In this document: positions 34,356 through 56,718 of the stretch, piece by piece
Position numbering within the stretch: position 1 is the stretch's first letter
Layout: the number at the start of each line of letters is the position of its first letter
Assembly (NCBI GenBank): GCA_009691445.1
Contig: SICL01000004.1
Coordinates: forward strand, 30,708 to 94,707
Origin: Candidatus Taenariivivens baikalensis
Lineage (GTDB): Bacteria; Omnitrophota; Omnitrophia; Omnitrophales; Aquincolibacteriaceae
DNA: 64,000 nucleotides
Direction of reading: 5' to 3'
The notes under the pieces: generated by a model
What the model was told of the DNA's origin: nothing
Seen by the model: only the letters and a program-made list of their open reading frames with translations
Database searches by the model: none
Translations under genes and position numbers: made by a program

Positions 34356-34425
34356 GTCATTGCGAGCGAAGCGAAGCAATTTCAGCGCTAAGATTGCCGC
34401 GCTCGCTCCGCTCCCTCGCAATGAC
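34356..34425. repeat. Family-A 70-bp nested palindromic element (GTCATTGCGAG ... CTCGCAATGAC) inside the atp operon between atpH and atpA
   Basis: 11-bp perfect terminal inverted repeats are read directly from the sequence. A near-identical copy in opposite orientation lies at 54761-54830. Confidence 0.85.
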
Positions 34426-36070: not shown

Positions 36071-36988
36071 ATGTCAGGCAAATTAAGAGAACTCAAAAAC
36101 CGGATCCGCAGCGTTGAGAATACAAAAAAGATCACGCGTGCGATGGAAATGGTAGCGGCCTCCAAGCTGCGCCGCTTTCAGACCCTGATGTCCCAAGCCC
36201 GTCCCTACACACTGGGATTGGAAAGCCTGCTGAAGCGCTTGAACCAGAATCTGCCTTCCAAGAGTCATCCTTTTTTTGAATCTCGGGAAGAAAAAAAAAT
36301 CGGTGTGGTTTTGATGACTTCGGATTCTGGACTCTGCGGTTCGTACAATCTTGATCTGCTGGAACATACGCGGGATTTTCTCCGTGAAAATAAATCAGAA
36401 AAAATATGGATTGGAGTGGGCAAGGCCGGCATTGCTGAACTGCGACGTCTTGGTTGCAAGATTCATAAGGAGCTGATTGAAATTCGGCCAGCGCGGTTCG
36501 ATGAGATTTTGAACGACCTCAAATCGATGCTCGAATCTCTTTTCCTGAGCAGGCAGGTGGACGCGGTTTATGTGATCTACAGTCACTCGTTGACGTCTTC
36601 AAGCTTTGCGGATGTTACCGAGAAACTGTTGCCGCTGGCCCAACCCGCCTCTACGCCCGTCATCGCGAACGAAGAGAAGCAATCTAACGCCGTTATTGCT
36701 CCTCGCAATGACAAAGAGCAAGACGTGGATTATATCTTTGAACCTTCGCCGGCATTTATTTTTGATAAGCTAATTCCGCTTTATTTTGAGTCTAAAGTAA
36801 GACAAGTGTTTCTCGAAGCCATCGTCTCCGAGCAGATTGCCCGTATGACGGCCATGCACGCCGCCACGCAAAACGCCAAAGAGATGATCAGCTCGCTTGT
36901 CTTGGAACGCAACAAAGCGCGCCAGGCTTCGATCACTAAAGAAATTATTGAGATTGTGTCGGGCTCTCAAGCCCTAAAAATAAAGTGA
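36071..36988 (+). CDS. atpG: ATP synthase F1 subunit gamma
   Basis: The gamma-family N- and C-terminal coiled-coil helices are present (MSGKLRELKNRIRSVENTKKITRAMEMVAASKLRR...). Confidence 0.95.
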   Translation: MSGKLRELKNRIRSVENTKKITRAMEMVAASKLRRFQTLMSQARPYTLGLESLLKRLNQNLPSKSHPFFESREEKKIGVVLMTSDSGLCGSYNLDLLEHTRDFLRENKSEKIWIGVGKAGIAELRRLGCKIHKELIEIRPARFDEILNDLKSMLESLFLSRQVDAVYVIYSHSLTSSSFADVTEKLLPLAQPASTPVIANEEKQSNAVIAPRNDKEQDVDYIFEPSPAFIFDKLIPLYFESKVRQVFLEAIVSEQIARMTAMHAATQNAKEMISSLVLERNKARQASITKEIIEIVSGSQALKIK

Positions 36989-44724: not shown

Positions 44725-45324
44725 ATGAAACAATCCTACACCACTTCAGAAGCTGCGGAAATTTGCCGAGTCTCCCGCGGAACTATCCTGCGCTGGATCC
44801 GCGAGAAAAAATTAAAAGCCTCCGTCACTTTTGGTGGTCATCACCGCATTGAAGCCGTCGACCTTACCGGGGTATTAGAAAAACTGGGAATGAAACTGCC
44901 TGACAGTTTTTCGGCGTTTTCCCGCTGTTTACCCTCCCGGGTACTGCTTGTGGATGAGGAGGAGGAAATTGGAAAATTAGCCCGTCATTATTTACAAAAA
45001 TATTATCCTGCCTTGCAAATTGAAGAAGCCGCTGACAGTTTCAGTGCCGGCATTACCATCCAAAAATACCGCCCGGATCTTATTGTTCTGAATATCATGC
45101 CTCCCGGTATACAAGGCTATGATCTGTGTGAATCTATTCGAAATTTGTCGCGGGAATACAGGCCGGCCATTCTTGCCATCACGGCGCATGAAAACAACTG
45201 GGAACACCGCATCTTGGAAGCGGGAGCCGATCTGTGCCTAAAGAAACCGTTTCATGAGAACGATTTTATCAGTGCGATTAGAATTCTCTGGAATAGCACC
45301 TATAAAAATAAAAGGGCGGGATGA
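44725..45324 (+). CDS. HTH (excisionase/MerR-like) plus atypical receiver-domain regulator. The phospho-acceptor Asp is replaced by Asn.
   Basis: The N-terminal TSEAAEICRVSRGTILRWIREKKL helix-turn-helix is followed by a CheY-like fold with the VDEEEE acidic pocket, and with T and K conserved (AITAHE, LKKPF). The D57-equivalent position reads LIVLNIMPPG instead of LLDxMP. Confidence 0.75.
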   Translation: MKQSYTTSEAAEICRVSRGTILRWIREKKLKASVTFGGHHRIEAVDLTGVLEKLGMKLPDSFSAFSRCLPSRVLLVDEEEEIGKLARHYLQKYYPALQIEEAADSFSAGITIQKYRPDLIVLNIMPPGIQGYDLCESIRNLSREYRPAILAITAHENNWEHRILEAGADLCLKKPFHENDFISAIRILWNSTYKNKRAG

Positions 45325-45343
45325 ACTTTTGATAGAGAAAAAT

Positions 45344-48300
45344 ATGACCAACAATCCAAAGACATGTCATAAAAAAATAATGTGGAATAGAGGTGTTCTG
45401 AAGGACCGTTTTGCGCCGTTTCTTTTACTCTTGACCTGTTTAAGCCTGACAACAGTGGGTTTCGTCTTTCTCAGTCGCATGACCCATGAAAAAGCATCCC
45501 TTAAGTTTGAGTCGGAATGGCGGGATATCAAGGCCAGGATCCAGACCCATGTCAATATGTACACTGAACAGCTTTACGCAAACCGCGCGCTCTTTGCCGC
45601 AAGTAAGAGTGTTGAACGTAATGAGTGGGCGTCGTTTATAAACAACCAACGTCTCTCAAGTCAGTTCCCAGGAATTGTCGCAAGTGAATTTATTGAATCG
45701 GTTTCAAGCGACGCATTGGGGGACTTTATCCGCTCCGTCAAAGAGGATAAGAGCATCGATCCAGAAGGATATCCCACATTTGATGTCTTCCCCAAACATC
45801 AAACAAAAAATCATTATATTGTCACTTATGTTGAGCCTTTTACGTCTAATCGAAAAGTGTTTGGATATAACATGTCTTCAGACGGCATGCGTTCTGAGGT
45901 TTTGCAAAGAGCCGCTGAAACCGGAAAAGCTGTAGCCACAAGCAAGATTCACCTTATTCAAGATCCGTCCCATGCGGGCCTAATCATCGCTTTGCCCATC
46001 TATAAAAACAAACTCCCCGTTACCAACAAGACAGAGCGGTTAACTGCGCTTCAGGGGTTCGTCGCAAGCGTCATCGATACTTCTGCTTTTTTTAGACACG
46101 ACTTCATTCTGTCCACGGCTACCAACCAAATCGGTTTTGAGATTTTCGATTCTGCCCTGACAACCAAAGATCACCTCTTGTTTAATTTTGATCATTCGCT
46201 CAATTCCACAAATCAACACGACAAGGCGAAGTTCTCGGTCAACACGCCGATGGTGATCGGAAACCGAACATTCATCCTGAACTTCACAGCCTCACAAAAT
46301 TTCCGTCTGGGTGAGGGACAGGAGTGGTTTCCCTACTGGATTTTAGGCATCGGTATCCTCACCAGCTTTCTTTTTTTCACCCTTCTGCAAGTTTTAGCCT
46401 CGAGAGAATCCAAAGCCCTGCAATATGCTGACGAAAAGACGGAGGAAATTAAACTGCTGCTTGAGGCTTCAACGGACGGCATCTATGGAATTAATCTCGA
46501 AGGTCGGTTTACTTTTATGAATTCTGCCGCGCTTCAATTGCTGGGTTACGCTCTTGAGGAAGTTATCGGAAAAAATATTCATCACTTAGCTCATTTAAAA
46601 AAGTTAGACGGTGCCCCCTACCCCATCGAAGATTGCCCGATCTATCAAGCATTTCAATCTGGAATCTCCTGCCGAGTCGATACTGAGGTTTTGTGGCACA
46701 AAGACGGAACCTCCTTCCCCGTCGAATATTCTGCTTCACCGATGATTCGCCGGGGAAAGATATTAGGGTCATTGTGTACTTTTAGTGATATCACCGAGCG
46801 TAAAATAGCAGAGGAAAAATTAGCTCGAGCGGCAGCGGAAGCCGAAATTTTGCATCAAGCAGCTACTTTCGCCACACGGGATCTCACCTTTGATGTGGCC
46901 CTTAAAGAAACGCTTGCCTTAGTTTGTCAGGGTATCCATTGGCCCGTGGGACATGTCTGTAAATTGTCCCCCGATCACAAGGGCTTGGAATCCACCGATA
47001 TCTGGTATTTGAACGATCCAGAAAAGTACCACCCCTTCAAAAAATTGACGGAAAGTTTATATTTCCCTATCGGAACGGGGCTGCCCGGACGCATTGCCCA
47101 ATCTCGTGACATTGCTTGGATTGATAATGTGCAGAATGACCATAATTTCCCGCGAAAACAAGTTTGCGCCGAAGTCGGTATTACCTCTGCTTTTGCTTTT
47201 CCGATTACGATTGAAGGACGGGTCGTTGCGGTTTTAGAGTTCTTCATCCCCAAAGCACTAAAACCGGATGCGGACATTTTGAAACTCGTGGGCAATCTCT
47301 CAAAACAACTTCAAGTGGTTTTTGAGAAAAAAAGGGCGGCGGAAGCGGCGGAAGCGGTGGAAGCAAGCCGTCTCCGGCTGCAGGCTGTTTTGGATTCTGC
47401 CACAGAAGTTTCCATTATTACAACAGACACTCAAGGGCTTATCACCGTCTTTAACAAAGGAGCAGAAAAAATGCTGGGCTGGAAAGCAGAGGAAATGCTT
47501 TACCAGAAAACGCCGGAGGTTATTCACACTTTTGAGGAAGTCTCCGAGCGGGGAAAAGAAATGTCTCTCACTTCAGGGAAAACTGTGGAGGGATTTGAAG
47601 TTTTTGTGGCCAATGCGCGTGCAGGAAAGCCTCAGCTCAGGGAATGGACTTACGTCAAAAAAGACGGCACCCGTTTCCCCGTCAGTCTTTATATTACGGG
47701 AGTGTACAATGCCAGCCATGAGCTTTCTGGCTTTTTGGGAATCGCTACGGATATCACAAAAATTAAACAAGCTGAAATTCAGCTTCAAGAAGCGGCGCGT
47801 CAAGCATACGAAGCGTCGCGTATAAAATCTGATTTCTTAGCCACCATGAGCCATGAAATTCGTACGCCAATGAACGCCATTCTCGGAATGAGCGACTTAC
47901 TGACCGAGACGCCTTTGACGGCTGAACAAAAAGACTATCTGGCACGATTATCCCGCGCGGGCGAGACTCTTTTAAGCATTATTAATGACGTGCTTGACCT
48001 TTCAAAGATTGAAGCCCGCTCCATGGAGATTGAGCATATTGCATTTAATTTAAAAGAGCAGGTAGGAAAAACGGTCGACTTGCTGGCCTCTAAAGCTCAT
48101 CAAAAAGGGCTCGCGATTCATTGGCAGCTCGACCCAGAGATTCCGGCGATACTGCAGTCTGACCCAACCCGCTTGTGGCAAATCCTGCTGAATTTGATCA
48201 ACAATGCCATCAAGTTTACTGAGGAAGGTGAGATTTCCTTGTCGGTAAAACCGGTAAAAAAGGAGATTGAACATAAAGAGAAAAATGAAATTTGGCTTCA

Positions 48301-48988
48301 CTTTGCTCTGTCGGATACCGGAATTGGCATTCCGAGAGATAAAATAAACAAACTATTTAAGCCGTTCGCGCAGGCCGATTCATCAACGACGCGAAAATTC
48401 GGCGGTACCGGTTTGGGCTTAAATATCTGCAAACGGCTTGTGGAGCTGATGGGAGGAAAGATTTGGGCGGAAAGCGAGGAAGGAAAAGGTTCCTGTTTCC
48501 ATTTTATTCTCCCCTTTGGGAAATCAGATACGCTTCAGGAAAAGGCCCTGGAGACAGCTTCCGAAGACTCCCCCTTGGCATCAAGTCTAAAAATTCTTCT
48601 TGCGGATGACTCCGAGGACAATCAGAGTCTCATCCAGGCTTATTTGAAGAAATATCCTTATCAAATTGACATCGCAGAAAATGGAAAAATTGCCTGCGAC
48701 AAATCGGCCGCCACGGAGTACGATGTCATCTTGATGGATATGCAAATGCCGGAAATGGACGGCTATACCGCCTCTCGAATTATTCGCGAACGAGAAGCAA
48801 TCGGCGGCCCCAAACGGCATGTGCCGATTATTGCCCTGACAGCCAACGCATTAATTCAGGACGCTCAAAGATGTCTCGCCGCTGGCTGCGATCAGCATCT
48901 TTCGAAACCCATCAAAAAATCGATTTTGTTACAAACTTTGCAGTCGATATCTATAAAAAGGCTGCTTGAAAGGCGGGGACTAAAATGA
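45344..48988 (+). CDS. hybrid sensor histidine kinase: TM-CHASE-TM-PAS-GAF-PAS-HisKA-HATPase-REC
   Basis: A CHASE-like periplasmic region lies between two TM segments. It is followed by PAS-like, GAF-like and PAS-like segments, the H-box SHEIRTPMN, N/G-box ATPase motifs (NNAIKFT, GGTGLGL) and a C-terminal receiver (LLADDSEDN...DVILMDMQMPEMDG). The ATG at 45344 is preferred because the track's ORF runs into the upstream gene. Confidence 0.9.
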   Translation: MTNNPKTCHKKIMWNRGVLKDRFAPFLLLLTCLSLTTVGFVFLSRMTHEKASLKFESEWRDIKARIQTHVNMYTEQLYANRALFAASKSVERNEWASFINNQRLSSQFPGIVASEFIESVSSDALGDFIRSVKEDKSIDPEGYPTFDVFPKHQTKNHYIVTYVEPFTSNRKVFGYNMSSDGMRSEVLQRAAETGKAVATSKIHLIQDPSHAGLIIALPIYKNKLPVTNKTERLTALQGFVASVIDTSAFFRHDFILSTATNQIGFEIFDSALTTKDHLLFNFDHSLNSTNQHDKAKFSVNTPMVIGNRTFILNFTASQNFRLGEGQEWFPYWILGIGILTSFLFFTLLQVLASRESKALQYADEKTEEIKLLLEASTDGIYGINLEGRFTFMNSAALQLLGYALEEVIGKNIHHLAHLKKLDGAPYPIEDCPIYQAFQSGISCRVDTEVLWHKDGTSFPVEYSASPMIRRGKILGSLCTFSDITERKIAEEKLARAAAEAEILHQAATFATRDLTFDVALKETLALVCQGIHWPVGHVCKLSPDHKGLESTDIWYLNDPEKYHPFKKLTESLYFPIGTGLPGRIAQSRDIAWIDNVQNDHNFPRKQVCAEVGITSAFAFPITIEGRVVAVLEFFIPKALKPDADILKLVGNLSKQLQVVFEKKRAAEAAEAVEASRLRLQAVLDSATEVSIITTDTQGLITVFNKGAEKMLGWKAEEMLYQKTPEVIHTFEEVSERGKEMSLTSGKTVEGFEVFVANARAGKPQLREWTYVKKDGTRFPVSLYITGVYNASHELSGFLGIATDITKIKQAEIQLQEAARQAYEASRIKSDFLATMSHEIRTPMNAILGMSDLLTETPLTAEQKDYLARLSRAGETLLSIINDVLDLSKIEARSMEIEHIAFNLKEQVGKTVDLLASKAHQKGLAIHWQLDPEIPAILQSDPTRLWQILLNLINNAIKFTEEGEISLSVKPVKKEIEHKEKNEIWLHFALSDTGIGIPRDKINKLFKPFAQADSSTTRKFGGTGLGLNICKRLVELMGGKIWAESEEGKGSCFHFILPFGKSDTLQEKALETASEDSPLASSLKILLADDSEDNQSLIQAYLKKYPYQIDIAENGKIACDKSAATEYDVILMDMQMPEMDGYTASRIIREREAIGGPKRHVPIIALTANALIQDAQRCLAAGCDQHLSKPIKKSILLQTLQSISIKRLLERRGLK

Positions 48989-49455
48989 AACAAATTATCT
49001 GTATTGATCTACTGGAAGACAATGACGACGATGCCCTGGTGATTAAGGTTAAAAGTCAAAAACTACGATACGATTTTCACTGGGAAATTTTTAAGGACGC
49101 GTCCTCAGCGGAAGCCCATTACAAGCATTTGCTCACCGAGCTTGGGCCTTCAAATCCCCTCCCTTCCAACCGCCTGATCCTGTTGGATCTGGCATTGCAG
49201 CAATCTCATGGATTTGAATTTCTGAGTTTCATTAAAAAGGGCGATCCACGCCTTGCGACACTGCCGATCATTATTGTCACTGCTTCCGATTCCAAAGAGG
49301 ATGTGAGAAATACTTTCAAGGGAGGCGGCACCGCCTTCTTAAAAAAACCTTTTGCTCTGGAGGAATTCACACGCACTCTTGAAACCCTGATCATGACCGG
49401 CCGCTTGAAACCTCTTTGCGACGCTGACGAAAAGACGGATGCGCTGAAGAGATAA
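48985..49455 (+). CDS. single-domain response regulator receiver protein
   Basis: This is a CheY-like ORF with IDLLEDNDDD, RLILLDLAL (Asp present), VTASD and KKPF. Its start overlaps the kinase stop (ATGA). Confidence 0.8.
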   Translation: MKQIICIDLLEDNDDDALVIKVKSQKLRYDFHWEIFKDASSAEAHYKHLLTELGPSNPLPSNRLILLDLALQQSHGFEFLSFIKKGDPRLATLPIIIVTASDSKEDVRNTFKGGGTAFLKKPFALEEFTRTLETLIMTGRLKPLCDADEKTDALKR

Positions 49456-50332: not shown

Positions 50333-51730
50333 ATGAAAAACTTAATGCGCTTAAAACCAACCGCACCAGGTTTTCTTCTTTTAGTCCTTTCTCTTTTCGG
50401 GCCATCTTCCACCGCCTTTGCCGTTGGTTCGGGCGGTTTTGAAAATGCGACCTTCAGTTCAATTGCTATCTCTCAGAGTAATGCCGTCACCGCTCAAGGC
50501 GAAGAACCGGCGGCTATTTCCTATAACCCGGCAGGAATTGCTAATCTAAAAGGCCTGCAAGTGGAATCCAATATGGGTTTTATCAGCGTAATCACCCATA
50601 TCAGTAAGCAGAGCCAGGACGGAAAAACTCAGAGCTCCGGGACACTCGTGGAAGTTCCCACGGGCTATCTGACTTTCAATCCCGGAAAAGTCTTTAATGA
50701 CCGGCTGGTGCTAGGAATCGGGTCCGATTCGCCCTTTGGCCTCTCCAACAAGTGGGATTCAGCCAATCAAGCAGTCCGGTACACGGGCTACAAGAACTGG
50801 CTCAAAATGTATACCCTGAAACCCACGGTTGCCTTCAAATTCACGGATTGGTTGTCGGTTGGTGCCGGGGCCATGAATTACCGCGTTTTTAATTTTGGAT
50901 CAGTCCAAGCCTACCCTAACAATGCTATTGTTCCGGGATCTCCGGACGGCCAGCTTCGACTCAATATGAGCGGCTCTCATTGGGGTTGGCATTTCGGAGC
51001 GCGTGTGAAACCAGCTCCAAAGCATCAGTTTGGATTTTATTTCCGGAGTCCTGTTAAAATTCACATCCGAGGAAAAGTAAAGGTGGAACGCTCTTCCTTT
51101 GCGCCGGGAGGACGTTTTGAAAGCGGTGCTTATTCCAATCTTGATCTTCCGATGAATATGACCTGGGGCTATGCTTTCATGCCTAATCCCAAGAACACTA
51201 TTGAAGCAGATTTTGGCTACACACGCTGGTCTCAGCATAATCGTCTGGATGTGATTTCTACCGACAGCATCAGCACCTTCGATGACATGATTTTAGCCGC
51301 CATCAGTCTCAATGCCCATGATTATGACGACACCTTCTCGATTCATCTCGGAGGAAATCACAAGGTCAATGACCGCCTGACCTTGCGCGCGGGAACATTA
51401 TTTTATACGGCCGCGGTGCCCAAAAACCATCTTATCCCTGCGGTGCCGGACAGTAACAGGCTGGCTTTTTCTGCAGGTCTCAGCTACCAGATCAATCAAA
51501 TGATGGCCCTGGATGTTTGCTATATGAACATGATTGGCCTGCGCAGAGGCGTGAATAATGATATCGGCGAATCCCTCGGCGGATCTGGGGATGGAAAATA
51601 TACTTCTGATTATAATATTTTCCTGATCTCAATGAGGTTGATGTGGGAAGATCTGTTTGACAAGATGCTGCCTGGAAGTAAACCCTCAGAACCTGCTCAA
51701 AAGTTGGAAGTTTCCCCGGAAATAAAATAA
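50333..51730 (+). CDS. outer-membrane long-chain fatty acid/hydrophobic compound transporter, FadL/OmpP1/TodX family
   Basis: A signal peptide and the family-typical ISYNPAG motif near the N-terminus of a roughly 440-aa beta-barrel are present. Confidence 0.75.
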   Translation: MKNLMRLKPTAPGFLLLVLSLFGPSSTAFAVGSGGFENATFSSIAISQSNAVTAQGEEPAAISYNPAGIANLKGLQVESNMGFISVITHISKQSQDGKTQSSGTLVEVPTGYLTFNPGKVFNDRLVLGIGSDSPFGLSNKWDSANQAVRYTGYKNWLKMYTLKPTVAFKFTDWLSVGAGAMNYRVFNFGSVQAYPNNAIVPGSPDGQLRLNMSGSHWGWHFGARVKPAPKHQFGFYFRSPVKIHIRGKVKVERSSFAPGGRFESGAYSNLDLPMNMTWGYAFMPNPKNTIEADFGYTRWSQHNRLDVISTDSISTFDDMILAAISLNAHDYDDTFSIHLGGNHKVNDRLTLRAGTLFYTAAVPKNHLIPAVPDSNRLAFSAGLSYQINQMMALDVCYMNMIGLRRGVNNDIGESLGGSGDGKYTSDYNIFLISMRLMWEDLFDKMLPGSKPSEPAQKLEVSPEIK

Positions 51731-52236
51731 CGAAGCGTCGACTGCAGTTTTAGAATCGCCTCATCCTTCAAGCGGCTGATCGGATTTCCGTAATAACGTT
51801 TGATCGTCTTTTCAATATCTTCATCCGTGGCAAGAACGATTTCAATATCCCGAATGCCGGGCACGCACTCGAGATCTTTAAGAGAAGCGAGATTCATGGG
51901 ATCAGGGATAGCCACAAGCATCATCCCTTCCTGGATCGTAATCGGGATTAAACCATGTTCGACAGCGAACTGTTTTGAAACCGCTTGCAGGGCCTTGGCC
52001 TGAATCTTGATTTGAGATAAATCCACAAACTGTTTTCCAAACTGAATTGCCAGGGCCTGATATAAAATATTTTTCGAAATGACTCCGTTATCAATCAGTA
52101 TCTTTCCAAGAGGGCGCTTCTTCTCATCGTATTTCTGGAAATTTAACGCGTCTTCAAGATCCTGCCCCTGAACCCACCCCTGATGAAGCAAAATTTCTCC
52201 GATTCGTATGGGCTTCCGTTGTGTGGATATGATCAT
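51697..52236 (-). CDS. stand-alone MshEN-like domain protein (tandem c-di-GMP-binding motifs plus T2SSE_N fold), with no ATPase domain
   Basis: Two 24-aa copies of the RLGxxLLxxG(L/V/I)(L/V/I)xxxxLxxxLxxQ motif are present (RIGEILLHQGWVQGQDLEDALNFQ and PLGKILIDNGVISKNILYQALAIQ). They are followed by a GspE/PilB N-terminal-domain-like segment (LIPITIQEGMMLVAIPDPMN...IEIVLATDEDIEKTIKRYYG). Confidence 0.7.
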   Translation of the reverse strand: MIISTQRKPIRIGEILLHQGWVQGQDLEDALNFQKYDEKKRPLGKILIDNGVISKNILYQALAIQFGKQFVDLSQIKIQAKALQAVSKQFAVEHGLIPITIQEGMMLVAIPDPMNLASLKDLECVPGIRDIEIVLATDEDIEKTIKRYYGNPISRLKDEAILKLQSTLRYFISGETSNF

Positions 52237-52348
52237 CCTTAACCTCTTGGTTAATTAAACCTTACCTGTCGCAAACACTTTCTACAAGGGCTTTGTTGGT
52301 TTTATCTCTATCAATGCTGATCAGGTTGGGGGGGATCATCTCTCATTC

Positions 52349-52532
52349 GTCATTGCGAGCTACAGCGAAGCAATCTCGGGTTGTGCGCTTGAGATTGCCG
52401 CGTCGTCCTGCGGGACTCCTCGCAATGACTAAAATCTTTTCGTTGTCATTGCGAGCTGCAGCGAAGCAATCTTGCTGGTTGTGCCCAAGGATTATTGCCG
52501 CGTCTCCGCCCAAGCGCGGGACTCGCAATGAC
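52349..52532. repeat. Two tandem family-A elements of 81 and 88 bp, each bounded by GTCATTGCGAG...CTCGCAATGAC, separated by a 15-bp linker
   Basis: Read directly from the sequence. Both units contain an inner GCAATC...GATTGC palindrome. The internal sequence differs between units. Confidence 0.85.
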
Positions 52533-52584
52533 TACCAACGGAAATGAACCGCACAATGACAGAATAAGAGGATCTTATTCCCAC

Positions 52585-53055
52585 TTATCCTCGAATGAAG
52601 TCTTGCCTGGAAGAATCCCATATAAAAAGCGCTGAGTCGAAAGCCTTCCCCGCCTGAATGGAAAAAATTAAATAGGCGGCATTGGGATAAACAGGGTTTC
52701 CCTCCCATAGAGCCTGGCGGCGATCTTCTTCGGAAAAGGCTGCTGGGGCATCAATATGAGAATGATAAATGAGACAAATAATCAGGCTGTCGCGACGAAG
52801 TCTTTGATGAACTAATAGAAGTTCGCGAGGATCGATTAAATAAGCAGCGCGGGAAGTGCGAGGATATGTCTGAGGATCCTTGCGATGAAGTTCATCCTGC
52901 ACATTTCTACAGGGAATGATTTCTAGCAGTGTATCGGGATTCTTATTCGTCGCCAGACCTAAGCCACAGCATTCCTGGGGATATTCTTGTTCGGCGTGCT
53001 GCTGAATGCGAAAGAGTAAATTCTGCGGAATGGTGAGGGGCATATGATTCCACAC
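52585..53055 (-). CDS. JAMM/MPN+ (Mov34) family metalloprotease
   Basis: The JAMM motif is intact: the ECCG glutamate, then HSHIDAPAAFSEED (H-x-H-x7-S-x2-D). The ORF is 156 aa. Confidence 0.75.
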   Translation of the reverse strand: MWNHMPLTIPQNLLFRIQQHAEQEYPQECCGLGLATNKNPDTLLEIIPCRNVQDELHRKDPQTYPRTSRAAYLIDPRELLLVHQRLRRDSLIICLIYHSHIDAPAAFSEEDRRQALWEGNPVYPNAAYLIFSIQAGKAFDSALFIWDSSRQDFIRG

Positions 53056-53146: not shown

Positions 53147-54739
53147 TTAATCCTGGTGGATAATTCCGGCAATTCGGCCAGACCTGATTTGAACGCGTAC
53201 ATGGGCAGACTGTGCTTTGGATCCCGAACGCACAGTATGAATCACCGCATCAAACACCTCTGCGCTGGATCCTAAATCAATCGTCGGCGAGTGAACATCC
53301 GCTGAACTGAGGTTTTTACCTTGGGCATTAACGAGATCCACATGATACGTCGTTTGCTCTGTGGTCCAAAACTTGTGATCTATCGCCAGATCTTTAAAGC
53401 TAAGCAATTGGTTTTGTAATGAAAAATCTTCCAGGGGAGAGGATGTTTCAAACCCGTATTTCCCAATCAGATCCCGGCGCTCAATAAGCACCTTGGCAAC
53501 GGTTTCGCTGTCCTCGGGCTTGGAAAGTTTTCCGGTTTTCACAATCGCACGAATATTCTCATCCGAAAAGGACATGATAATCTTGGTTGCCCAAAGCGCA
53601 TCCGCACGGGTTAAGTCCTTAAACGCGTAATGCGGCAGCTGGGTTTTGTATTTCGCGGGATCAAAATAACGGTTGTCAAAATAACCGACTGCCGGAGAAA
53701 CACTCATCAGATTTTCTCCCGTATCTTTCCAACGTTTTTGCCAGGGCTTTTTCCAAAATCCAAAAGAAAAAATGGCTTTCCCGGTATCACCATAATCCAC
53801 AAAATACTCGTGAGTGGCCATGGGAGGCTTGGCGCCGTTCGAAGAACTGCCTAGTGCATCCTGAAAATCCATCAGGTAATGTTTCAAAACTGGCTTTCCA
53901 TTGTCACTCACCAGAAGATCCTGCGTATTACCTTCCCGCAGGTCATCCTCACCTAACCAAGAACCAAAGACACGCAAAGCCCGAAGCGCCCGTAAGCAAT
54001 CATGATTAATTTTATCTTGAGGATCAGCGCTGCGGCGGCCTTGAAATCGAAAAACCCCTTTGTCTTCTCCTGCCGGTGTTTTTCTCGCGGAAGCCCGGTA
54101 ACGGCCTTCTTCGTCCTGGGGAACAAAAGTAATATATTGTTCAAAACGTTCCTGCGTTAGTTTTTTCTGAAAGCCGGTGTCGTCATAGACAGTCGCAGAG
54201 GGGGCAATGGAGACCTGCTTCAAGGTGAAGGTCGCAATTGTATATTGAGGAACTGAATAGCCAATCGCGTGAAAAAAACGGCTGGCGATGGAATCGGCGG
54301 ATGTCTGAAGCTCCAACGAGTCTTCGGAATCGAATTTCAAAAAATAAGCTCCTCCCTTGGAATCCTTGATAAAAAATCCAGGATGAAGACCGTTGAATTT
54401 GCCTTGAGTGATCGTAAGTCCGTTGCTGAAATCAGGGCCTTCATTTTCCGCAGGACCTTTGGCCAGCTCCTCAGCACTGAGGGGCTTGCGGGCGTGACGA
54501 TTCACAAAGAACGCTGAATCCGGAACTTCATCATAGGCATTAACATCCAGCGAACGGAGTTTTTTCTTGGCAACAAAGCGGTAAAGCCGGTCCAAATGAA
54601 GAAAATTGGTGCCTTCGTAGTAGACGTTCTGATTAAAAAGATCGGCGAAAAAACTGGTCTCTTGTGTTTTGATCTCTTGCGCAAAGGCAGGCGCCGACAG
54701 CGGAAGCGTTGCTGCAATCATGACAATGGCTATTGTCAT
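53147..54739 (-). CDS. secreted hypothetical protein (530 aa with signal peptide)
   Basis: The ATG at 54739 gives MTIAIVMIAATLPLSAPAFAQE, a classical signal peptide. I do not recognise the family. The track's longer N-terminus reads through repeat 54761-54830. Confidence 0.6.
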   Translation of the reverse strand: MTIAIVMIAATLPLSAPAFAQEIKTQETSFFADLFNQNVYYEGTNFLHLDRLYRFVAKKKLRSLDVNAYDEVPDSAFFVNRHARKPLSAEELAKGPAENEGPDFSNGLTITQGKFNGLHPGFFIKDSKGGAYFLKFDSEDSLELQTSADSIASRFFHAIGYSVPQYTIATFTLKQVSIAPSATVYDDTGFQKKLTQERFEQYITFVPQDEEGRYRASARKTPAGEDKGVFRFQGRRSADPQDKINHDCLRALRALRVFGSWLGEDDLREGNTQDLLVSDNGKPVLKHYLMDFQDALGSSSNGAKPPMATHEYFVDYGDTGKAIFSFGFWKKPWQKRWKDTGENLMSVSPAVGYFDNRYFDPAKYKTQLPHYAFKDLTRADALWATKIIMSFSDENIRAIVKTGKLSKPEDSETVAKVLIERRDLIGKYGFETSSPLEDFSLQNQLLSFKDLAIDHKFWTTEQTTYHVDLVNAQGKNLSSADVHSPTIDLGSSAEVFDAVIHTVRSGSKAQSAHVRVQIRSGRIAGIIHQD

Positions 54740-54760
54740 CCTAAGGCCTCTTTGCCTTAC

Positions 54761-54830
54761 GTCATTGCGAGGGAGCGGAGCGACCGCGGCAATCTCAGCG
54801 CTGAGATTGCTTCGCTTCGCTCGCAATGAC
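54761..54830. repeat. Family-A 70-bp element, a near-identical reverse-orientation copy of 34356-34425
   Basis: GTCATTGCGAGGGAGCGGAGCGAcCGCGGCAATCTcAGCGCTGAgATTGCTTCGCTTCGCTCGCAATGAC aligns to the reverse complement of the atpH-atpA copy with about 4 mismatches. Confidence 0.85.
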
Positions 54831-54833
54831 GAC

Positions 54834-56162
54834 TTAAAAGGGTGTGCTGGTTTTAACATAATAATTGGTTCCTTCATCTCCATGGGCCATTTCCAACGAC
54901 AGCAACACAACGTTTGCCAAACTCGTGCGAATCCCAACTCCATACGATTCACGCAAATTCTTTGATTTCAACTTGTCAAAATTTTTGAAGACCTGCCCTG
55001 AATCCAGAAATACCACGGCGTCCGTCTTCCAATCTCTGTATTCCCAAAGATTGTACCGATACTCTACATTGAAAACGACCATGCTGCGGTCTGTAAACCG
55101 GTTGTAGCGATAGGCCCGAAGGGTTTCGCTCATCTGGTCCGACATCCCGTAACCTCCAAGCCGCGCCATTTGATGAAAGGGCACAGAGTGTCCGTTTGTT
55201 TCAGAGTTATGTTCGCCGTAAGCACGAATCCCAAGTACGCGGCGCGGAGTGCCCAGCTTAAAATAATGACTGAGTTCCATTTCGTATTTGAAAAACTCGG
55301 CATTGGAACTGTAAAGACCCTGGTTATAGCTGAAGCCAAACTTTTGAAGACCGCCGGTTGTGGAATTTCCAGCCTGATCACGGGTATCACGCTTCGCCTC
55401 AGTTTTATAAACTAAAAGTTCATCCCCGTGAAGCCCGGGAATGCCGGCGCTGCCATTGAAAATACCACTGTTATAACGGCCCATCGATCCATCACGACCA
55501 TCCGCGATGTGTACATTGCGGTAGCCAAATTTAAAATCCAGGGAATGCGCCACGTCCGGCTTGTACCCAAGAAGATATTGAAGATTGGTTTCTTCCCGTT
55601 TGTACACATAACCATCTCCCCGGCTGGAATGGGGACCGATGCCATAGAAATGTTCCTGGGGATGGGTTTCATATTGAAAATACCCCTGAGTCCGGAATCC
55701 GGTTCCGCCGATGCGCTCTACGCCAAGACGCGATCCAACGTTAAAATTATAATGGGACGCAAAATGGATCCAGCTATCCGCCACCAAATCCGGAAAACGT
55801 TCCTTCTGATGAAGGGCCCTGACAAAATCAACTTCAGCGCCTATATCCAGACGCGCCAAGCTAATCAAATTGAGTTTTGGTGTCAGACCTTTTTTGCCTA
55901 GCGTGTCATACACCCACTGGATCTTTTCCATCACGTGGTGTTTTTCCATATAGACCAAGCTCTTATCCACGGGGTAACGCAGGATTTCAAAGGGATATTC
56001 CGGAAAATGCAGCAGACTTCGTTCAAACAGAGTGGCCTGTTTAGGTTCGCTCTGAAGCGGAGCATATTTATCGTAAGAACTATCCTGGGCAAACAACGGG
56101 GGCGAAGCAAGAAGCAACACGGCTGTAAAACGGATGATGGATAAGAATGATTTTTGTTTCAT
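54834..56162 (-). CDS. Omp85 (BamA/TamA/TpsB superfamily) outer-membrane beta-barrel protein, short form
   Basis: The ATG at 56162 gives the signal peptide MKQKSFLSIIRFTAVLLLASPPLFAQD. The C-terminal barrel has alternating aromatic/hydrophobic strands, a Gly-rich motif, and a terminal ...YVKTSTPF ending in Phe, as in the bacterial surface antigen D15 domain. Confidence 0.65.
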   Translation of the reverse strand: MKQKSFLSIIRFTAVLLLASPPLFAQDSSYDKYAPLQSEPKQATLFERSLLHFPEYPFEILRYPVDKSLVYMEKHHVMEKIQWVYDTLGKKGLTPKLNLISLARLDIGAEVDFVRALHQKERFPDLVADSWIHFASHYNFNVGSRLGVERIGGTGFRTQGYFQYETHPQEHFYGIGPHSSRGDGYVYKREETNLQYLLGYKPDVAHSLDFKFGYRNVHIADGRDGSMGRYNSGIFNGSAGIPGLHGDELLVYKTEAKRDTRDQAGNSTTGGLQKFGFSYNQGLYSSNAEFFKYEMELSHYFKLGTPRRVLGIRAYGEHNSETNGHSVPFHQMARLGGYGMSDQMSETLRAYRYNRFTDRSMVVFNVEYRYNLWEYRDWKTDAVVFLDSGQVFKNFDKLKSKNLRESYGVGIRTSLANVVLLSLEMAHGDEGTNYYVKTSTPF

Positions 56163-56292
56163 AGGGTAATAAAGTGTTTCTCGAAAAATATTTATCGGCT
56201 CCCGAGGATTTTCCTTAAGATTTATTTTTGATTCTTCAACTGCCGGACGCAGAAACAACTGGTGGGGCCAGGGCCAGCCGGACTTGGCCTCT

Positions 56293-56718
56293 TTAGTCGT
56301 TATCCGCCGGAAGGGTAAAGGCTTGAGGAATATGCCTGATTTCCGGAGCTCCCCGCCCGACAGATGACAGGCCGGCGTCTAGTGACCCGCTCACGGCAAT
56401 CACATCAAAGCCCGCGGGTTGGGAAGCAAAGCTCGGATGCGTTTTTAAATACCACTGCGCCAGCCGAATCAGCTTCTTTTGCTTGGCCGCGTGAACCGAT
56501 TCTTCGGGCCGTCCGAAGTGATCATTCGACCGTGTCTTAATTTCAACGAAGATAATCCGTCCATCCTTTTGAACAATCAAATCAATTTCACCGATTGTGC
56601 ACCGATAGTTTTTCTCCAAGATCTTGTAGCCTTGCTTCTTTAGATAACTGCAGGCTGCCGCCTCACCGCGGTCTCCGAGCGTATAACGAAAAGGTTTAGA
56701 GCTGGGTTTAAGCTTCAC
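56293..56718 (-). CDS. yraN: YraN-family (UPF0102) predicted endonuclease
   Basis: The ORF has GEAAACSYLKKQGYKILEKNYRCTIGEIDLIV...IIFVEIKTR, a PD-(D/E)xK-like motif. It shows the conserved synteny downstream of rnhB. Confidence 0.8.
   Translation of the reverse strand: MKLKPSSKPFRYTLGDRGEAAACSYLKKQGYKILEKNYRCTIGEIDLIVQKDGRIIFVEIKTRSNDHFGRPEESVHAAKQKKLIRLAQWYLKTHPSFASQPAGFDVIAVSGSLDAGLSSVGRGAPEIRHIPQAFTLPADND

What the first reader, a model, noticed from the sequence alone, without database searches (positions are those of the whole stretch)
51697..52236. Orphan MshEN-like domain protein, a candidate stand-alone c-di-GMP receptor
The ORF carries both 24-residue c-di-GMP-binding motifs defined for the MshE N-terminal domain, with spacing and conserved residues intact (both terminal Gln, internal Leu, both Gly). 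A T2SSE_N-like fold follows. There is no secretion ATPase domain. No GGDEF/EAL/pilus genes are nearby. It lies in an accessory stretch with a JAMM protease and outer-membrane proteins. It could be a soluble second-messenger adaptor.
Basis: partly seen in the sequence, partly recalled or inferred. Interest (0 to 1): 0.6.

Follow-up and report, generated by a model that had tools for sequence, protein, structure and literature searches.

The report
Free-standing MshEN c-di-GMP sensor protein

Summary
The ORF at 51697-52236 (minus strand, 179 aa) is real. It is a complete MshEN domain with nothing fused to it. Pfam MshEN (E 3e-16) and the NCBIfam c-di-GMP-motif model (50.7 bits, cutoff 38) both pass their curated cutoffs. 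The AlphaFold model (pLDDT 93) matches MshE and PilF GSPII-B crystallised with c-di-GMP.

Both 24-residue motifs are present and conserved in orthologues. The spacer between the motifs is 7 residues, not 5. Motif II starts with Pro, not Arg.

No T2SSE ATPase, GGDEF, HD-GYP or c-di-GMP riboswitch was found in the 64 kb window; EAL and PilZ were only crudely screened in the first 29 kb.

The "accessory stretch" claim is wrong. The gene sits in a syntenic, compositionally uniform core block that recurs in at least four other Omnitrophota-type genomes.

The architecture is not rare: 41 of the best 150 clusters in an exhaustive search are 225 aa or shorter. The same genome assembly (MAG) also carries a three-motif paralogue.

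Best reading: a soluble c-di-GMP receptor or adaptor acting in trans on an unknown partner. Ligand binding is inferred, not shown.

Verdict: new member of a known kind; interest about 0.3.

The parts
51697..52236 (-). Complete gene for a 179-aa stand-alone MshEN protein (NCBI MAG locus tag EXS63_02455, annotated 'hypothetical protein')
   Evidence: ORF list. An identical protein exists in an NCBI Candidatus Omnitrophica MAG. Pfam MshEN and the NCBIfam c-di-GMP_motif model are both above their curated cutoffs. AF2 model pLDDT 93.2.
52135..52206 (-). c-di-GMP-binding motif I (residues R11-Q34, RIGEILLHQGWVQGQDLEDALNFQ), forming helices 1-2
   Evidence: Matches the strict published regular expression. 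G13, G20, L27, L31 and Q34 are invariant in the 8 orthologues; R11 is kept in 7 of 8 (Met in P0006). The model has helices at 12-18 and 24-36.
52114..52134 (-). Spacer between the motifs, 7 residues (K35-R41, KYDEKKR); the canonical MshE spacer is 5
   Evidence: Read directly from the sequence and from alignments A1 and A2. Orthologues P0004, P0005, P0007 and P0008 have 5 residues. Geobacter PilB (PDB 5TSG) also aligns with 7.
52042..52113 (-). c-di-GMP-binding motif II (residues P42-Q65, PLGKILIDNGVISKNILYQALAIQ), forming helices 3-4; position 1 is Pro instead of Arg
   Evidence: Matches only the relaxed published pattern. G44, L47, L58, L62 and Q65 are invariant in orthologues. The model has helices at 43-49 and 55-65.
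51781..52041 (-). MshEN_C (T2SSE_N1-type) alpha/beta subdomain, residues 66-152
   Evidence: Pfam PF05157 aligns to residues 66-152. The model shows strands at 97-102, 105-110 and 130-135 flanked by helices. Foldseek matches 5HTL, 8PDK, 7LKO and 2D28.
51703..51783 (-). Extra C-terminal helix (residues ~152-178), found only in the three closest family members
   Evidence: The AF2 model has a helix at 152-178 with block pLDDT of 77-93. It is conserved in P0002 and P0003 and absent from P0004-P0008.
52243..52248 (-). Shine-Dalgarno-like AAGAGG, 6 nt upstream of the ATG
   Evidence: Upstream sequence printed.
52338..52534 (.). Context only: two tandem copies of a ~85-95 nt palindromic repeat element. 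They fill the JAB-MshEN intergenic gap, which is 348 nt here against 23-97 nt in orthologous loci
   Evidence: Repeat finder. The core 12-mer occurs 9 times in the window against 0.28 expected.
52585..53055 (-). Context only: upstream same-strand gene for a Prok-JAB/JAMM metalloprotease with an intact HxHx7SxxD motif
   Evidence: Pfam PF14464, E 4e-15. Motif HSHIDAPAAFSEED found at residue 98.
50333..51730 (+). Context only: convergent FadL/TodX-type outer-membrane transporter gene whose 3' end overlaps the MshEN gene by 34 nt
   Evidence: Pfam Toluene_X, E 8e-50. Coordinates.

Best explanation
The gene encodes a soluble, single-domain cyclic-di-GMP receptor.

Its N-terminal four-helix bundle is built from two tandem 24-residue MshEN motifs. 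By homology, one c-di-GMP molecule binds there. Each guanine would sit on a leucine triangle (I12 with L58/L62, and L43 with L27/L31). The amide groups after G13 and G44 would contact the bases, and Q34 and Q65 the ribose-phosphate.

The protein has no enzymatic or DNA-binding output domain. The signal must therefore be passed on through protein-protein contact, most plausibly via the MshEN_C (T2SSE_N1-type) subdomain. In GspE that subdomain contacts GspL (2BH1/4PHT), and in Xanthomonas PilB the N-terminal region containing it binds PilZ (7LKM). In this subclade the extra C-terminal helix may also contribute. This would be analogous to single-domain PilZ adaptors.

What is shown: domain identity, completeness of the gene, conservation of the ligand-contact residues, and absence of a fused or adjacent output.

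What is inferred: ligand binding, affinity, and action in trans. The partner is unknown.
For: 1. HMM membership above curated cutoffs for both halves of the domain.
2. The closest solved relatives by sequence are PilF GSPII domains, PilB N-domains and MshE 5HTL.
3. AF2 model pLDDT 93.2, pTM 0.80. The best Foldseek hits are 5HTL 'MshE with cdg' (E 6e-10, TM 0.79) and the c-di-GMP-bound PilF GSPII-B structures 8PDK, 8PFA and 9GLG.
4. The motif positions G13, G20, L27, L31, Q34, G44, L47, L58, L62 and Q65 are invariant among 8 orthologues that share only 43-68% identity. Most are at least 90% conserved across 33 stand-alone relatives.
5. The non-canonical first residue of motif II is tolerated in proven binders. 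PilF GSPII-B has K and L at these positions and binds with Kd 6 nM, and its K167L mutant binds with 2 nM (PMC11731258). Wang et al. include Pro in their relaxed search pattern (PMC5013675).
6. The isolated MshEN and MshEN_N domains of MshE bind c-di-GMP on their own, with Kd 0.5 and 0.35 uM (PMC5013675). A stand-alone domain can therefore be ligand-competent.
7. It is a real gene under selection. It is 46-51% identical to its orthologues, the same range as its neighbours (JAB 40-45%, Omp85 52-53%, FadL 53-54%). Length and position are conserved in four further genomes.
8. No ATPase, GGDEF, HD-GYP or riboswitch occurs in cis; EAL and PilZ were screened only with crude patterns plus Pfam scans of part of the window.
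Against: - No binding data exist for this protein or for any plain stand-alone MshEN protein that I could find in the literature.
- Pro at position 1 of motif II has not been tested experimentally, as far as I found.
- The 7-residue spacer departs from the 53-residue consensus.
- I could not show that this genome makes c-di-GMP. No diguanylate cyclase lies in the 64 kb window or in about 114 kb of related loci, and the rest of the MAG is out of reach.
- No partner could be identified. The neighbouring genes vary between genomes that keep the MshEN gene, so the 'adaptor' step is pure inference.
Confidence: 0.7

Rival explanations
1. It is the detached N-terminal regulatory domain of a type II secretion / type IV pilus ATPase encoded elsewhere in the genome. 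It would dock onto an N-terminally truncated T2SSE ATPase and make it c-di-GMP dependent (a split PilB/GspE). This is a specific version of the adaptor model rather than a full alternative.
For: In an Elusimicrobia MAG, a 164-aa MshEN gene is followed 46 nt later by a 408-aa T2SSE ATPase that has no N-domain (L022). This shows that split arrangements exist. The closest fused relatives by sequence are PilB/PilF-type ATPases.
Against: No T2SSE ATPase lies in the 64 kb window or next to the gene in the five syntenic Omnitrophota loci. The paralogue and other stand-alone relatives (P0118, P0025) also lack an adjacent ATPase.
Confidence: 0.15
2. It is a ligand-blind MshEN-fold protein that serves only as a protein-interaction module. 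Precedents are the degenerate N-domains of Xanthomonas XpsE and of Xanthomonas PilB, which binds PilZ rather than c-di-GMP.
For: Motif II lacks the canonical Arg and the spacer is 2 residues longer than the consensus. Degenerate MshEN domains are common (PMC5013675). Foldseek also matches 7LKO (PilB-N bound to PilZ) and 2D28 (XpsE-N).
Against: XpsE lost binding through many substitutions at Gly, Leu and Gln positions (G11V, L29R, G40L, L54H, L58C, Q61V). Every one of those positions is intact here and invariant in the orthologues. The curated NCBIfam c-di-GMP-motif model is passed.
Confidence: 0.1
3. It is a receptor for another cyclic dinucleotide, for example 3'3'-cGAMP, rather than c-di-GMP.
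For: Wang et al. report that MshEN can also bind cGAMP (section heading). No diguanylate cyclase was seen nearby.
Against: All characterised MshEN domains are primarily c-di-GMP receptors. No CD-NTase or CBASS component lies nearby, and PADLOC gives no hit for this protein or its neighbours.
Confidence: 0.04
4. It is a decaying fragment (pseudogene remnant) of a former PilB/GspE gene.
For: It consists only of the N-terminal domain of a normally longer protein.
Against: Orthologues in at least four other genomes have the same length and gene order, at 43-68% identity and with no frameshifts. Its conservation equals that of neighbouring genes. It has a ribosome-binding site. The downstream DNA is a convergent, intact FadL gene, not ATPase remnants.
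Confidence: 0.01

Closest known systems
MshEN domain of Vibrio cholerae MshE (PDB 5HTL) and the GSPII-B domain of Thermus thermophilus PilF (PDB 8PDK)
   Same: Same two-subdomain fold (TM 0.78-0.80, 29-30% identity). Same tandem 24-residue motifs with the Gly, Leu and Gln contact residues. The isolated domains bind c-di-GMP on their own, with Kd 0.5 uM and 6 nM.
   Different: Those are N-terminal regulatory domains of hexameric T2SSE pilus ATPases. Here nothing is fused and no pilus or secretion gene is nearby. The spacer is 7 residues rather than 5, motif II starts with Pro, and there is an extra C-terminal helix.
Pseudomonas aeruginosa PA3740 (architecture 'MshEN - xT2SSE_N1' in Wang et al. 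2016, Supplementary Table 4)
   Same: An MshEN protein without an ATPase domain. It is described as a swarming-motility protein in which a c-di-GMP-binding LxxxLxxQ motif was identified. It is the nearest published precedent I found for an MshEN protein acting without a fused enzyme.
   Different: PA3740 carries an additional, highly divergent T2SSE_N1 domain and comes from beta/gamma-proteobacteria.
Single-domain PilZ adaptor proteins (for example MapZ and FlgZ/YcgR-type proteins)
   Same: Same functional logic: a small cytoplasmic c-di-GMP-binding protein with no output domain, working by ligand-dependent binding to a partner.
   Different: Unrelated fold and motifs (RxxxR / DxSxxG beta-barrel). 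This is an analogy only.
NfrB of E. coli (GT2 glycosyltransferase fused to MshEN)
   Same: Second-best group of NCBIfam hits (NF008411 and NF012033, E about 1e-14 to 5e-15, query residues 5-160). It shows that MshEN can regulate outputs other than pili.
   Different: In NfrB the domain is fused to a membrane glycosyltransferase. Here it is free. Only the paralogue EXS63_02575 lies next to a GT2 gene, and that gene is convergent.

Membership tests
MshEN domain (Pfam PF05157 / NCBIfam NF053729) | Score above the curated cutoffs of the family HMMs | tested here: met
   PF05157 scores 59.6 bits against 23.1. NF053729 c-di-GMP_motif scores 50.7 bits against 38.
MshEN domain (Pfam PF05157 / NCBIfam NF053729) | Two tandem 24-residue motifs RLGxx(L/V/I)(L/V/I)xxG(L/V/I)(L/V/I)xxxxLxxxLxxQ, joined by a short loop so that four helices form one bundle | tested here: met
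   Motif I fits the strict pattern. Motif II fits the published relaxed pattern (Pro at position 1). The four helices are at 12-18, 24-36, 43-49 and 55-65. The loop is 7 residues instead of the 5 seen in VcMshE; orthologues have 5.
MshEN domain (Pfam PF05157 / NCBIfam NF053729) | MshEN_N four-helix bundle plus MshEN_C (T2SSE_N1) alpha/beta subdomain fold | tested here: met
   Foldseek top hits are 5HTL (TM 0.79, rmsd 2.9 A over 141 columns) and 8PDK, 8PFA and 9GLG.
MshEN domain (Pfam PF05157 / NCBIfam NF053729) | High-affinity binding of c-di-GMP | not testable with these tools
   This needs ITC, DRaCALA or DSF on purified protein. Only conservation of the contact residues could be checked.
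MshE/PilB/GspE-type secretion ATPases (T2SSE, PF00437) | C-terminal T2SSE ATPase domain with a Walker A motif | tested here: not met
   The ORF ends at residue 179. tblastn with three T2SSE ATPases finds no ATPase domain anywhere in the window. All TIGR02538 and TIGR02533 hits cover only the N-domain and fall far below their cutoffs.
PA3740-type MshEN - xT2SSE_N1 proteins | A second, divergent T2SSE_N1 domain after the MshEN domain | tested here: not met
   After residue 152 the model shows only a single helix, 152-178.
CBASS/Cap3-type defence locus (considered because of the adjacent JAB gene and MshEN's reported cGAMP binding) | CD-NTase, Cap2 or an effector nearby; matches to defence-system HMMs | tested here: not met
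   PADLOC gives no hit for MshEN, JAB, the 530-aa protein, Omp85 or FadL. The neighbours are housekeeping or envelope genes.

The most novel reading that the evidence does not exclude
Omnitrophota carry a lineage-wide family of free-standing MshEN proteins. There is a two-motif form at a fixed chromosomal site beside an Omp85 gene and an exported kinase-fold gene, and a three-motif form beside an aryl-polyene/fatty-acid-type cluster. These could act as diffusible c-di-GMP adaptors that couple the second messenger to cell-envelope or surface-lipid biogenesis rather than to pili. That would be an output class not yet described for MshEN. The odd-numbered three-motif form might use an unpaired motif for ligand-induced dimerisation.
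Probability: 0.12. Interest if true: 0.55.

Novelty: new member of a known kind. Interest (0 to 1): 0.3.

Why it matters
c-di-GMP signalling has long had far more enzymes that make and break the messenger than known receptors. PilZ, MshEN and, more recently, ComFB are the only broadly distributed receptor families (PMC12448109).

Every experimentally studied MshEN domain is fused to, or is part of, a larger effector: an ATPase, a glycosyltransferase or a response regulator. A free-standing MshEN would be the counterpart of single-domain PilZ adaptors. Finding its partner would reveal what c-di-GMP controls in Omnitrophota, an uncultured phylum of very small cells.

The practical value is modest. 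This protein is a clean, small (179 aa), confidently modelled candidate for a binding assay and a partner screen. The architecture itself is already abundant in databases, and the domain's ligand chemistry is well understood.

Tried and rejected
1. I recalled that P. aeruginosa FimW might be a stand-alone MshEN protein. The literature describes it as a PilZ-domain protein (PMC12564702), so I dropped it.

2. JAB-MshEN functional coupling, or a CBASS/Cap3-like reading. The JAB gene precedes the MshEN gene in four genomes. However, L028 keeps MshEN without an adjacent JAB gene, and L029 keeps JAB without MshEN. PADLOC finds nothing. The adjacency looks like inherited synteny, not a system.

3. 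A horizontally acquired or accessory island. GC content is flat at 0.46-0.49 across 44-60 kb, the flanks are housekeeping operons, and synteny is conserved. Rejected.

4. Promoter and terminator scan around the gene. Counts were not above the shuffled expectation, so it was uninformative.

5. A c-di-GMP riboswitch as evidence for c-di-GMP signalling in this genome. The Rfam gathering scan found only three tRNAs.

6. The scan of GTDB species genomes with the orthologue alignment returned only the two MAGs already known, plus ATPase-fused or otherwise different architectures. The close orthologue group is therefore small.

7. The afdb50 fold library was not available.

8. A genome-wide census of diguanylate cyclases and T2SSE ATPases in the MAG was not possible. 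Only the window and short loci are accessible.

9. Literature searches for pili or c-di-GMP in Omnitrophota gave nothing specific.
Full report
**1. What is at the coordinates**

The window holds an ORF at 51697..52236 on the minus strand, with an ATG start and 179 codons. An AAGAGG ribosome-binding site lies 6 nt upstream. The identical protein is deposited as 'hypothetical protein EXS63_02455' from a Candidatus Omnitrophica metagenome-assembled genome.

- Pfam assigns residues 66-152 to MshEN (PF05157, E 3e-16, 59.6 bits, cutoff 23.1).
- NCBIfam assigns residues 11-65 to the 53-position model 'c-di-GMP_motif, MshE-related' (NF053729, 50.7 bits, cutoff 38).
- Other NCBIfam hits (PilB, NfrB, TfpB, EpsG, GspE) cover only their MshEN parts and fall far below their whole-protein cutoffs.

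**2. The motifs**

- Motif I (R11-Q34, RIGEILLHQGWVQGQDLEDALNFQ) matches the strict published pattern.
- Motif II (P42-Q65, PLGKILIDNGVISKNILYQALAIQ) matches only the relaxed pattern that Wang et al. used for database searches, which allows R/K/P/N at position 1.
- The two motifs are the only matches to that pattern among open frames of at least 100 codons in all six frames of the 64 kb window.

- The spacer between the motifs is 7 residues (KYDEKKR), against 5 in VcMshE. Four orthologues have 5. The N-domain of Geobacter PilB aligns with 7.
- The first residue of motif II is Pro. It is Pro or Leu in all orthologues, usually preceded by Arg or Lys.

Published work shows this first position is tolerant. 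PilF GSPII-B has Lys and Leu there and binds c-di-GMP with Kd 6 nM. Its K167L mutant binds with 2 nM (PMC11731258). Pro itself has not been tested, as far as I found.

**3. Fold**

An AlphaFold2 model built on a 33-sequence alignment has mean pLDDT 93.2 and pTM 0.80.

- Four helices (12-18, 24-36, 43-49, 55-65) form the N-terminal bundle.
- An alpha/beta subdomain follows.
- An additional long helix spans 152-178.

Foldseek against the PDB ranks 'MshE with cdg' (5HTL) first (E 6e-10, TM 0.79, rmsd 2.9 A). Next come the c-di-GMP-bound PilF GSPII-B structures, then Xanthomonas PilB-N bound to PilZ, and XpsE-N. The 'T2SSE_N-like fold that follows' is therefore the C-terminal half of the same MshEN domain, not a second feature.

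**4. It really is stand-alone**

- The ORF ends 27 residues after the domain, and its 3' end overlaps a convergent FadL/TodX gene by 34 nt.
- tblastn with three T2SSE ATPases finds no ATPase domain anywhere in the window. Only this ORF is hit, through the query N-domains.
- No open frame of at least 100 codons contains GG[DE]EF or an HD-GYP signature. EAL and PilZ were checked only with crude patterns in that scan; the hits lie in genes with other assignments or in unannotated frames.
- Rfam finds no c-di-GMP riboswitch.

**5. The surroundings are core genome, not accessory**

Pfam scans of ORFs between 28 and 64 kb gave the following genes:

- EF-Tu, a fatty-acid desaturase and a histidine phosphatase;
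- an F-type ATP synthase operon and NADH dehydrogenase subunits;
- an HTH-REC regulator, a CHASE-PAS-GAF hybrid histidine kinase and a REC protein;
- SufT, FadL, MshEN, JAB, a 530-aa unknown protein and Omp85;
- L31 and Rho.

The remaining genes on this side (YraN, RNase HII, L19, TrmD, S16, MurA, PrmC and RF1) are assigned from the gene calls on an ENA contig that carries the same protein. The first 29 kb has the ORF pattern of the rpoBC and ribosomal-protein cluster, but I inferred this from ORF sizes and did not scan it. GC content is flat at 0.46-0.49.

The block L19 - RNase HII - YraN - (TLC translocase) - Omp85 - ~550-aa unknown - (HAD hydrolase) - JAB - MshEN recurs in three other MAGs whose MshEN proteins are 46-51% identical to this one (L003/L007, L005/L008, L024). 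Two of them (L003/L007 and L005/L008) also keep the convergent FadL and SufT genes downstream; the L024 locus ends at the MshEN gene. The MshEN gene is as conserved as its neighbours: JAB 40-45%, Omp85 52-53%, the unknown protein 50-51%, FadL 53-54%.

A more distant Omnitrophica MAG (L028) has a 155-aa stand-alone MshEN that is 31% identical. It sits at the same place, with a methyltransferase instead of JAB in front. Another MAG (L029) has the Omp85-unknown-JAB block but no MshEN. So the position is inherited, and JAB and MshEN are separable.

**6. How unusual is a stand-alone MshEN?**

Not very.

- The word-indexed search found 51 relatives. Nearly all are 130-250 aa with MshEN as the only Pfam domain.
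- The exhaustive profile search of 1.84 billion cluster representatives found 23,093 clusters at E <= 1e-3. Of the best 150, 41 are 225 aa or shorter, and all but two of these begin with Met.
- Look-ups showed that some are complete genes with intergenic DNA on both sides and unrelated neighbours (P0118).
- L028's protein is one of these clusters (P0114) and is 35-45% identical to many others.
- The close orthologue group of this particular protein is small: 8 sequences, and only 2 among GTDB species genomes.
- The same MAG encodes a paralogue, EXS63_02575 (P0022, 199 aa).

Wang et al. 2016 list many MshEN architectures, including PA3740 without an ATPase. The table rows I read contain no plain stand-alone row. 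I found no paper characterising a free MshEN protein.

**7. Mechanism**

- **Shown:** domain identity; gene integrity; purifying selection on the ligand-contact positions (G13, G20, L27, L31, Q34, G44, L47, L58, L62 and Q65 are invariant in 8 orthologues); and absence of any fused or conserved adjacent output.
- **Established elsewhere:** isolated MshEN, and even MshEN_N alone, binds c-di-GMP at 0.35-0.5 uM. The N1-type C-subdomain is a protein-docking surface in the GspE-GspL complexes, and the PilB N-terminal region docks PilZ; both kinds of complex appear among the structural hits.
- **Inferred:** this protein binds one c-di-GMP in the helical bundle and relays occupancy by binding a partner in trans, or possibly by oligomerising through the extra C-terminal helix found only in its three closest relatives.

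The partner is unknown. One concrete possibility is an N-terminally truncated T2SSE ATPase encoded elsewhere, as seen side by side in an Elusimicrobia MAG. No such gene is near any of the Omnitrophota loci.

I put 0.7 on 'c-di-GMP-binding stand-alone receptor'. Within that, I cannot rank the possible outputs.

**8. Rivals**

- **Ligand-blind scaffold.** Disfavoured, because every position mutated in the non-binder XpsE is intact and conserved here.
- **Pseudogene remnant.** Excluded by the orthologues and by the convergent intact FadL gene.
- **A different dinucleotide ligand.** Possible but without specific support. No CBASS-like context exists.

**9. Verdict**

The 'accessory stretch' remark is wrong.

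The protein is a new member of a known domain family, in an architecture that is common in databases but uncharacterised experimentally. Interest is 0.3.

The side observations may be at least as interesting as the finding itself. They are the exported kinase-fold protein paired with Omp85 across Omnitrophota, the three-motif MshEN paralogue family beside a polyene/fatty-acid-type cluster, and the palindromic repeat family.

Noticed in passing
window 53147-54736 (-) (listed ORF 53147-54952): A 530-aa protein (EXS63_02465) with a predicted N-terminal helix (model residues 2-10) that I read as signal-like; no signal-peptide predictor was run. No Pfam or NCBIfam hit. It has more than 330 homologues at 46-60% identity, all 'hypothetical' and all named ones from Omnitrophica/Omnitrophota, and it follows an Omp85 gene in every locus examined. 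The AF2 model (pLDDT 85) matches the secreted kinase CtkA, HipT and the Golgi kinase Fam20C, plus a C-terminal beta-sandwich. Invariant K134, D265/R267/N270 and D290-F291 look like kinase catalytic residues (my reading). This may be an exported kinase-fold family specific to the phylum.
   Followed up: yes
window 34356-34425, 52338-52534 (two copies), 54761-54830; single arm at 36701: A family of ~85-95 nt palindromic (REP/MITE-like) elements with the core GTCATTGCGAGC...GCTCGCAATGAC. There are 9 core hits against 0.28 expected. Two tandem copies expand the JAB-MshEN gap to 348 nt. One copy is translated into the spurious N-terminal extension of the 601-aa ORF.
   Followed up: partly
L006 1540-2139 and L023 6001-6579 (not in the window); P0009-P0027: A paralogous family of 188-207-aa stand-alone MshEN proteins with THREE 24-residue motifs: motif 1, a ~25-aa linker, then motifs 2 and 3 with the canonical 5-aa spacer. 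One member (EXS63_02575) is in the same MAG. In both genomes examined it lies beside an aryl-polyene/fatty-acid-type cluster (two ketosynthases, ACP, ACPS, 3-beta-HSD/epimerase; FabA/ApeI-like seen in L023 only). An odd number of half-sites is not in the published architecture table.
   Followed up: partly
L022 6001-6495 and 6542-7768: An Elusimicrobia MAG has a 164-aa MshEN gene followed 46 nt later by a 408-aa T2SSE ATPase that lacks an N-domain. This is a naturally split PilB/GspE.
   Followed up: partly
L028 9071-9538; L029: A 155-aa stand-alone MshEN (31% identical; both motifs start with Arg; 5-aa spacer) occupies the same syntenic position in a distant Omnitrophica MAG, behind a methyltransferase instead of JAB. 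Another MAG has the block with JAB but no MshEN.
   Followed up: yes
L003, L005, L024, L028, L029 (between the YraN and Omp85 genes); absent at window ~56258-56293: Relatives carry a TLC-type ATP/ADP translocase gene in this block, which hints at energy parasitism. The window genome has no room for one at this position.
   Followed up: no
window 52585-53055 (-): A stand-alone Prok-JAB protein with an intact JAMM motif (HSHIDAPAAFSEED). No ubiquitin-like or E1-like gene is visible nearby. Its weak best NCBIfam hit is archaeal desampylase.
   Followed up: partly
window 44725-49455: A signalling cluster 2-7 kb from the MshEN gene: an HTH_17-REC regulator, a 1244-aa CHASE-PAS-GAF-HisKA-HATPase-REC hybrid kinase and a 156-aa REC-only protein. 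None has a GGDEF, EAL or HD-GYP domain. The cluster is absent at this position in L005.
   Followed up: partly
L003 11578-14486: A gene call for a 6232-residue product runs off the end of the locus in a related MAG. It is a giant ORF of the kind I recall being reported for Omnitrophota.
   Followed up: no
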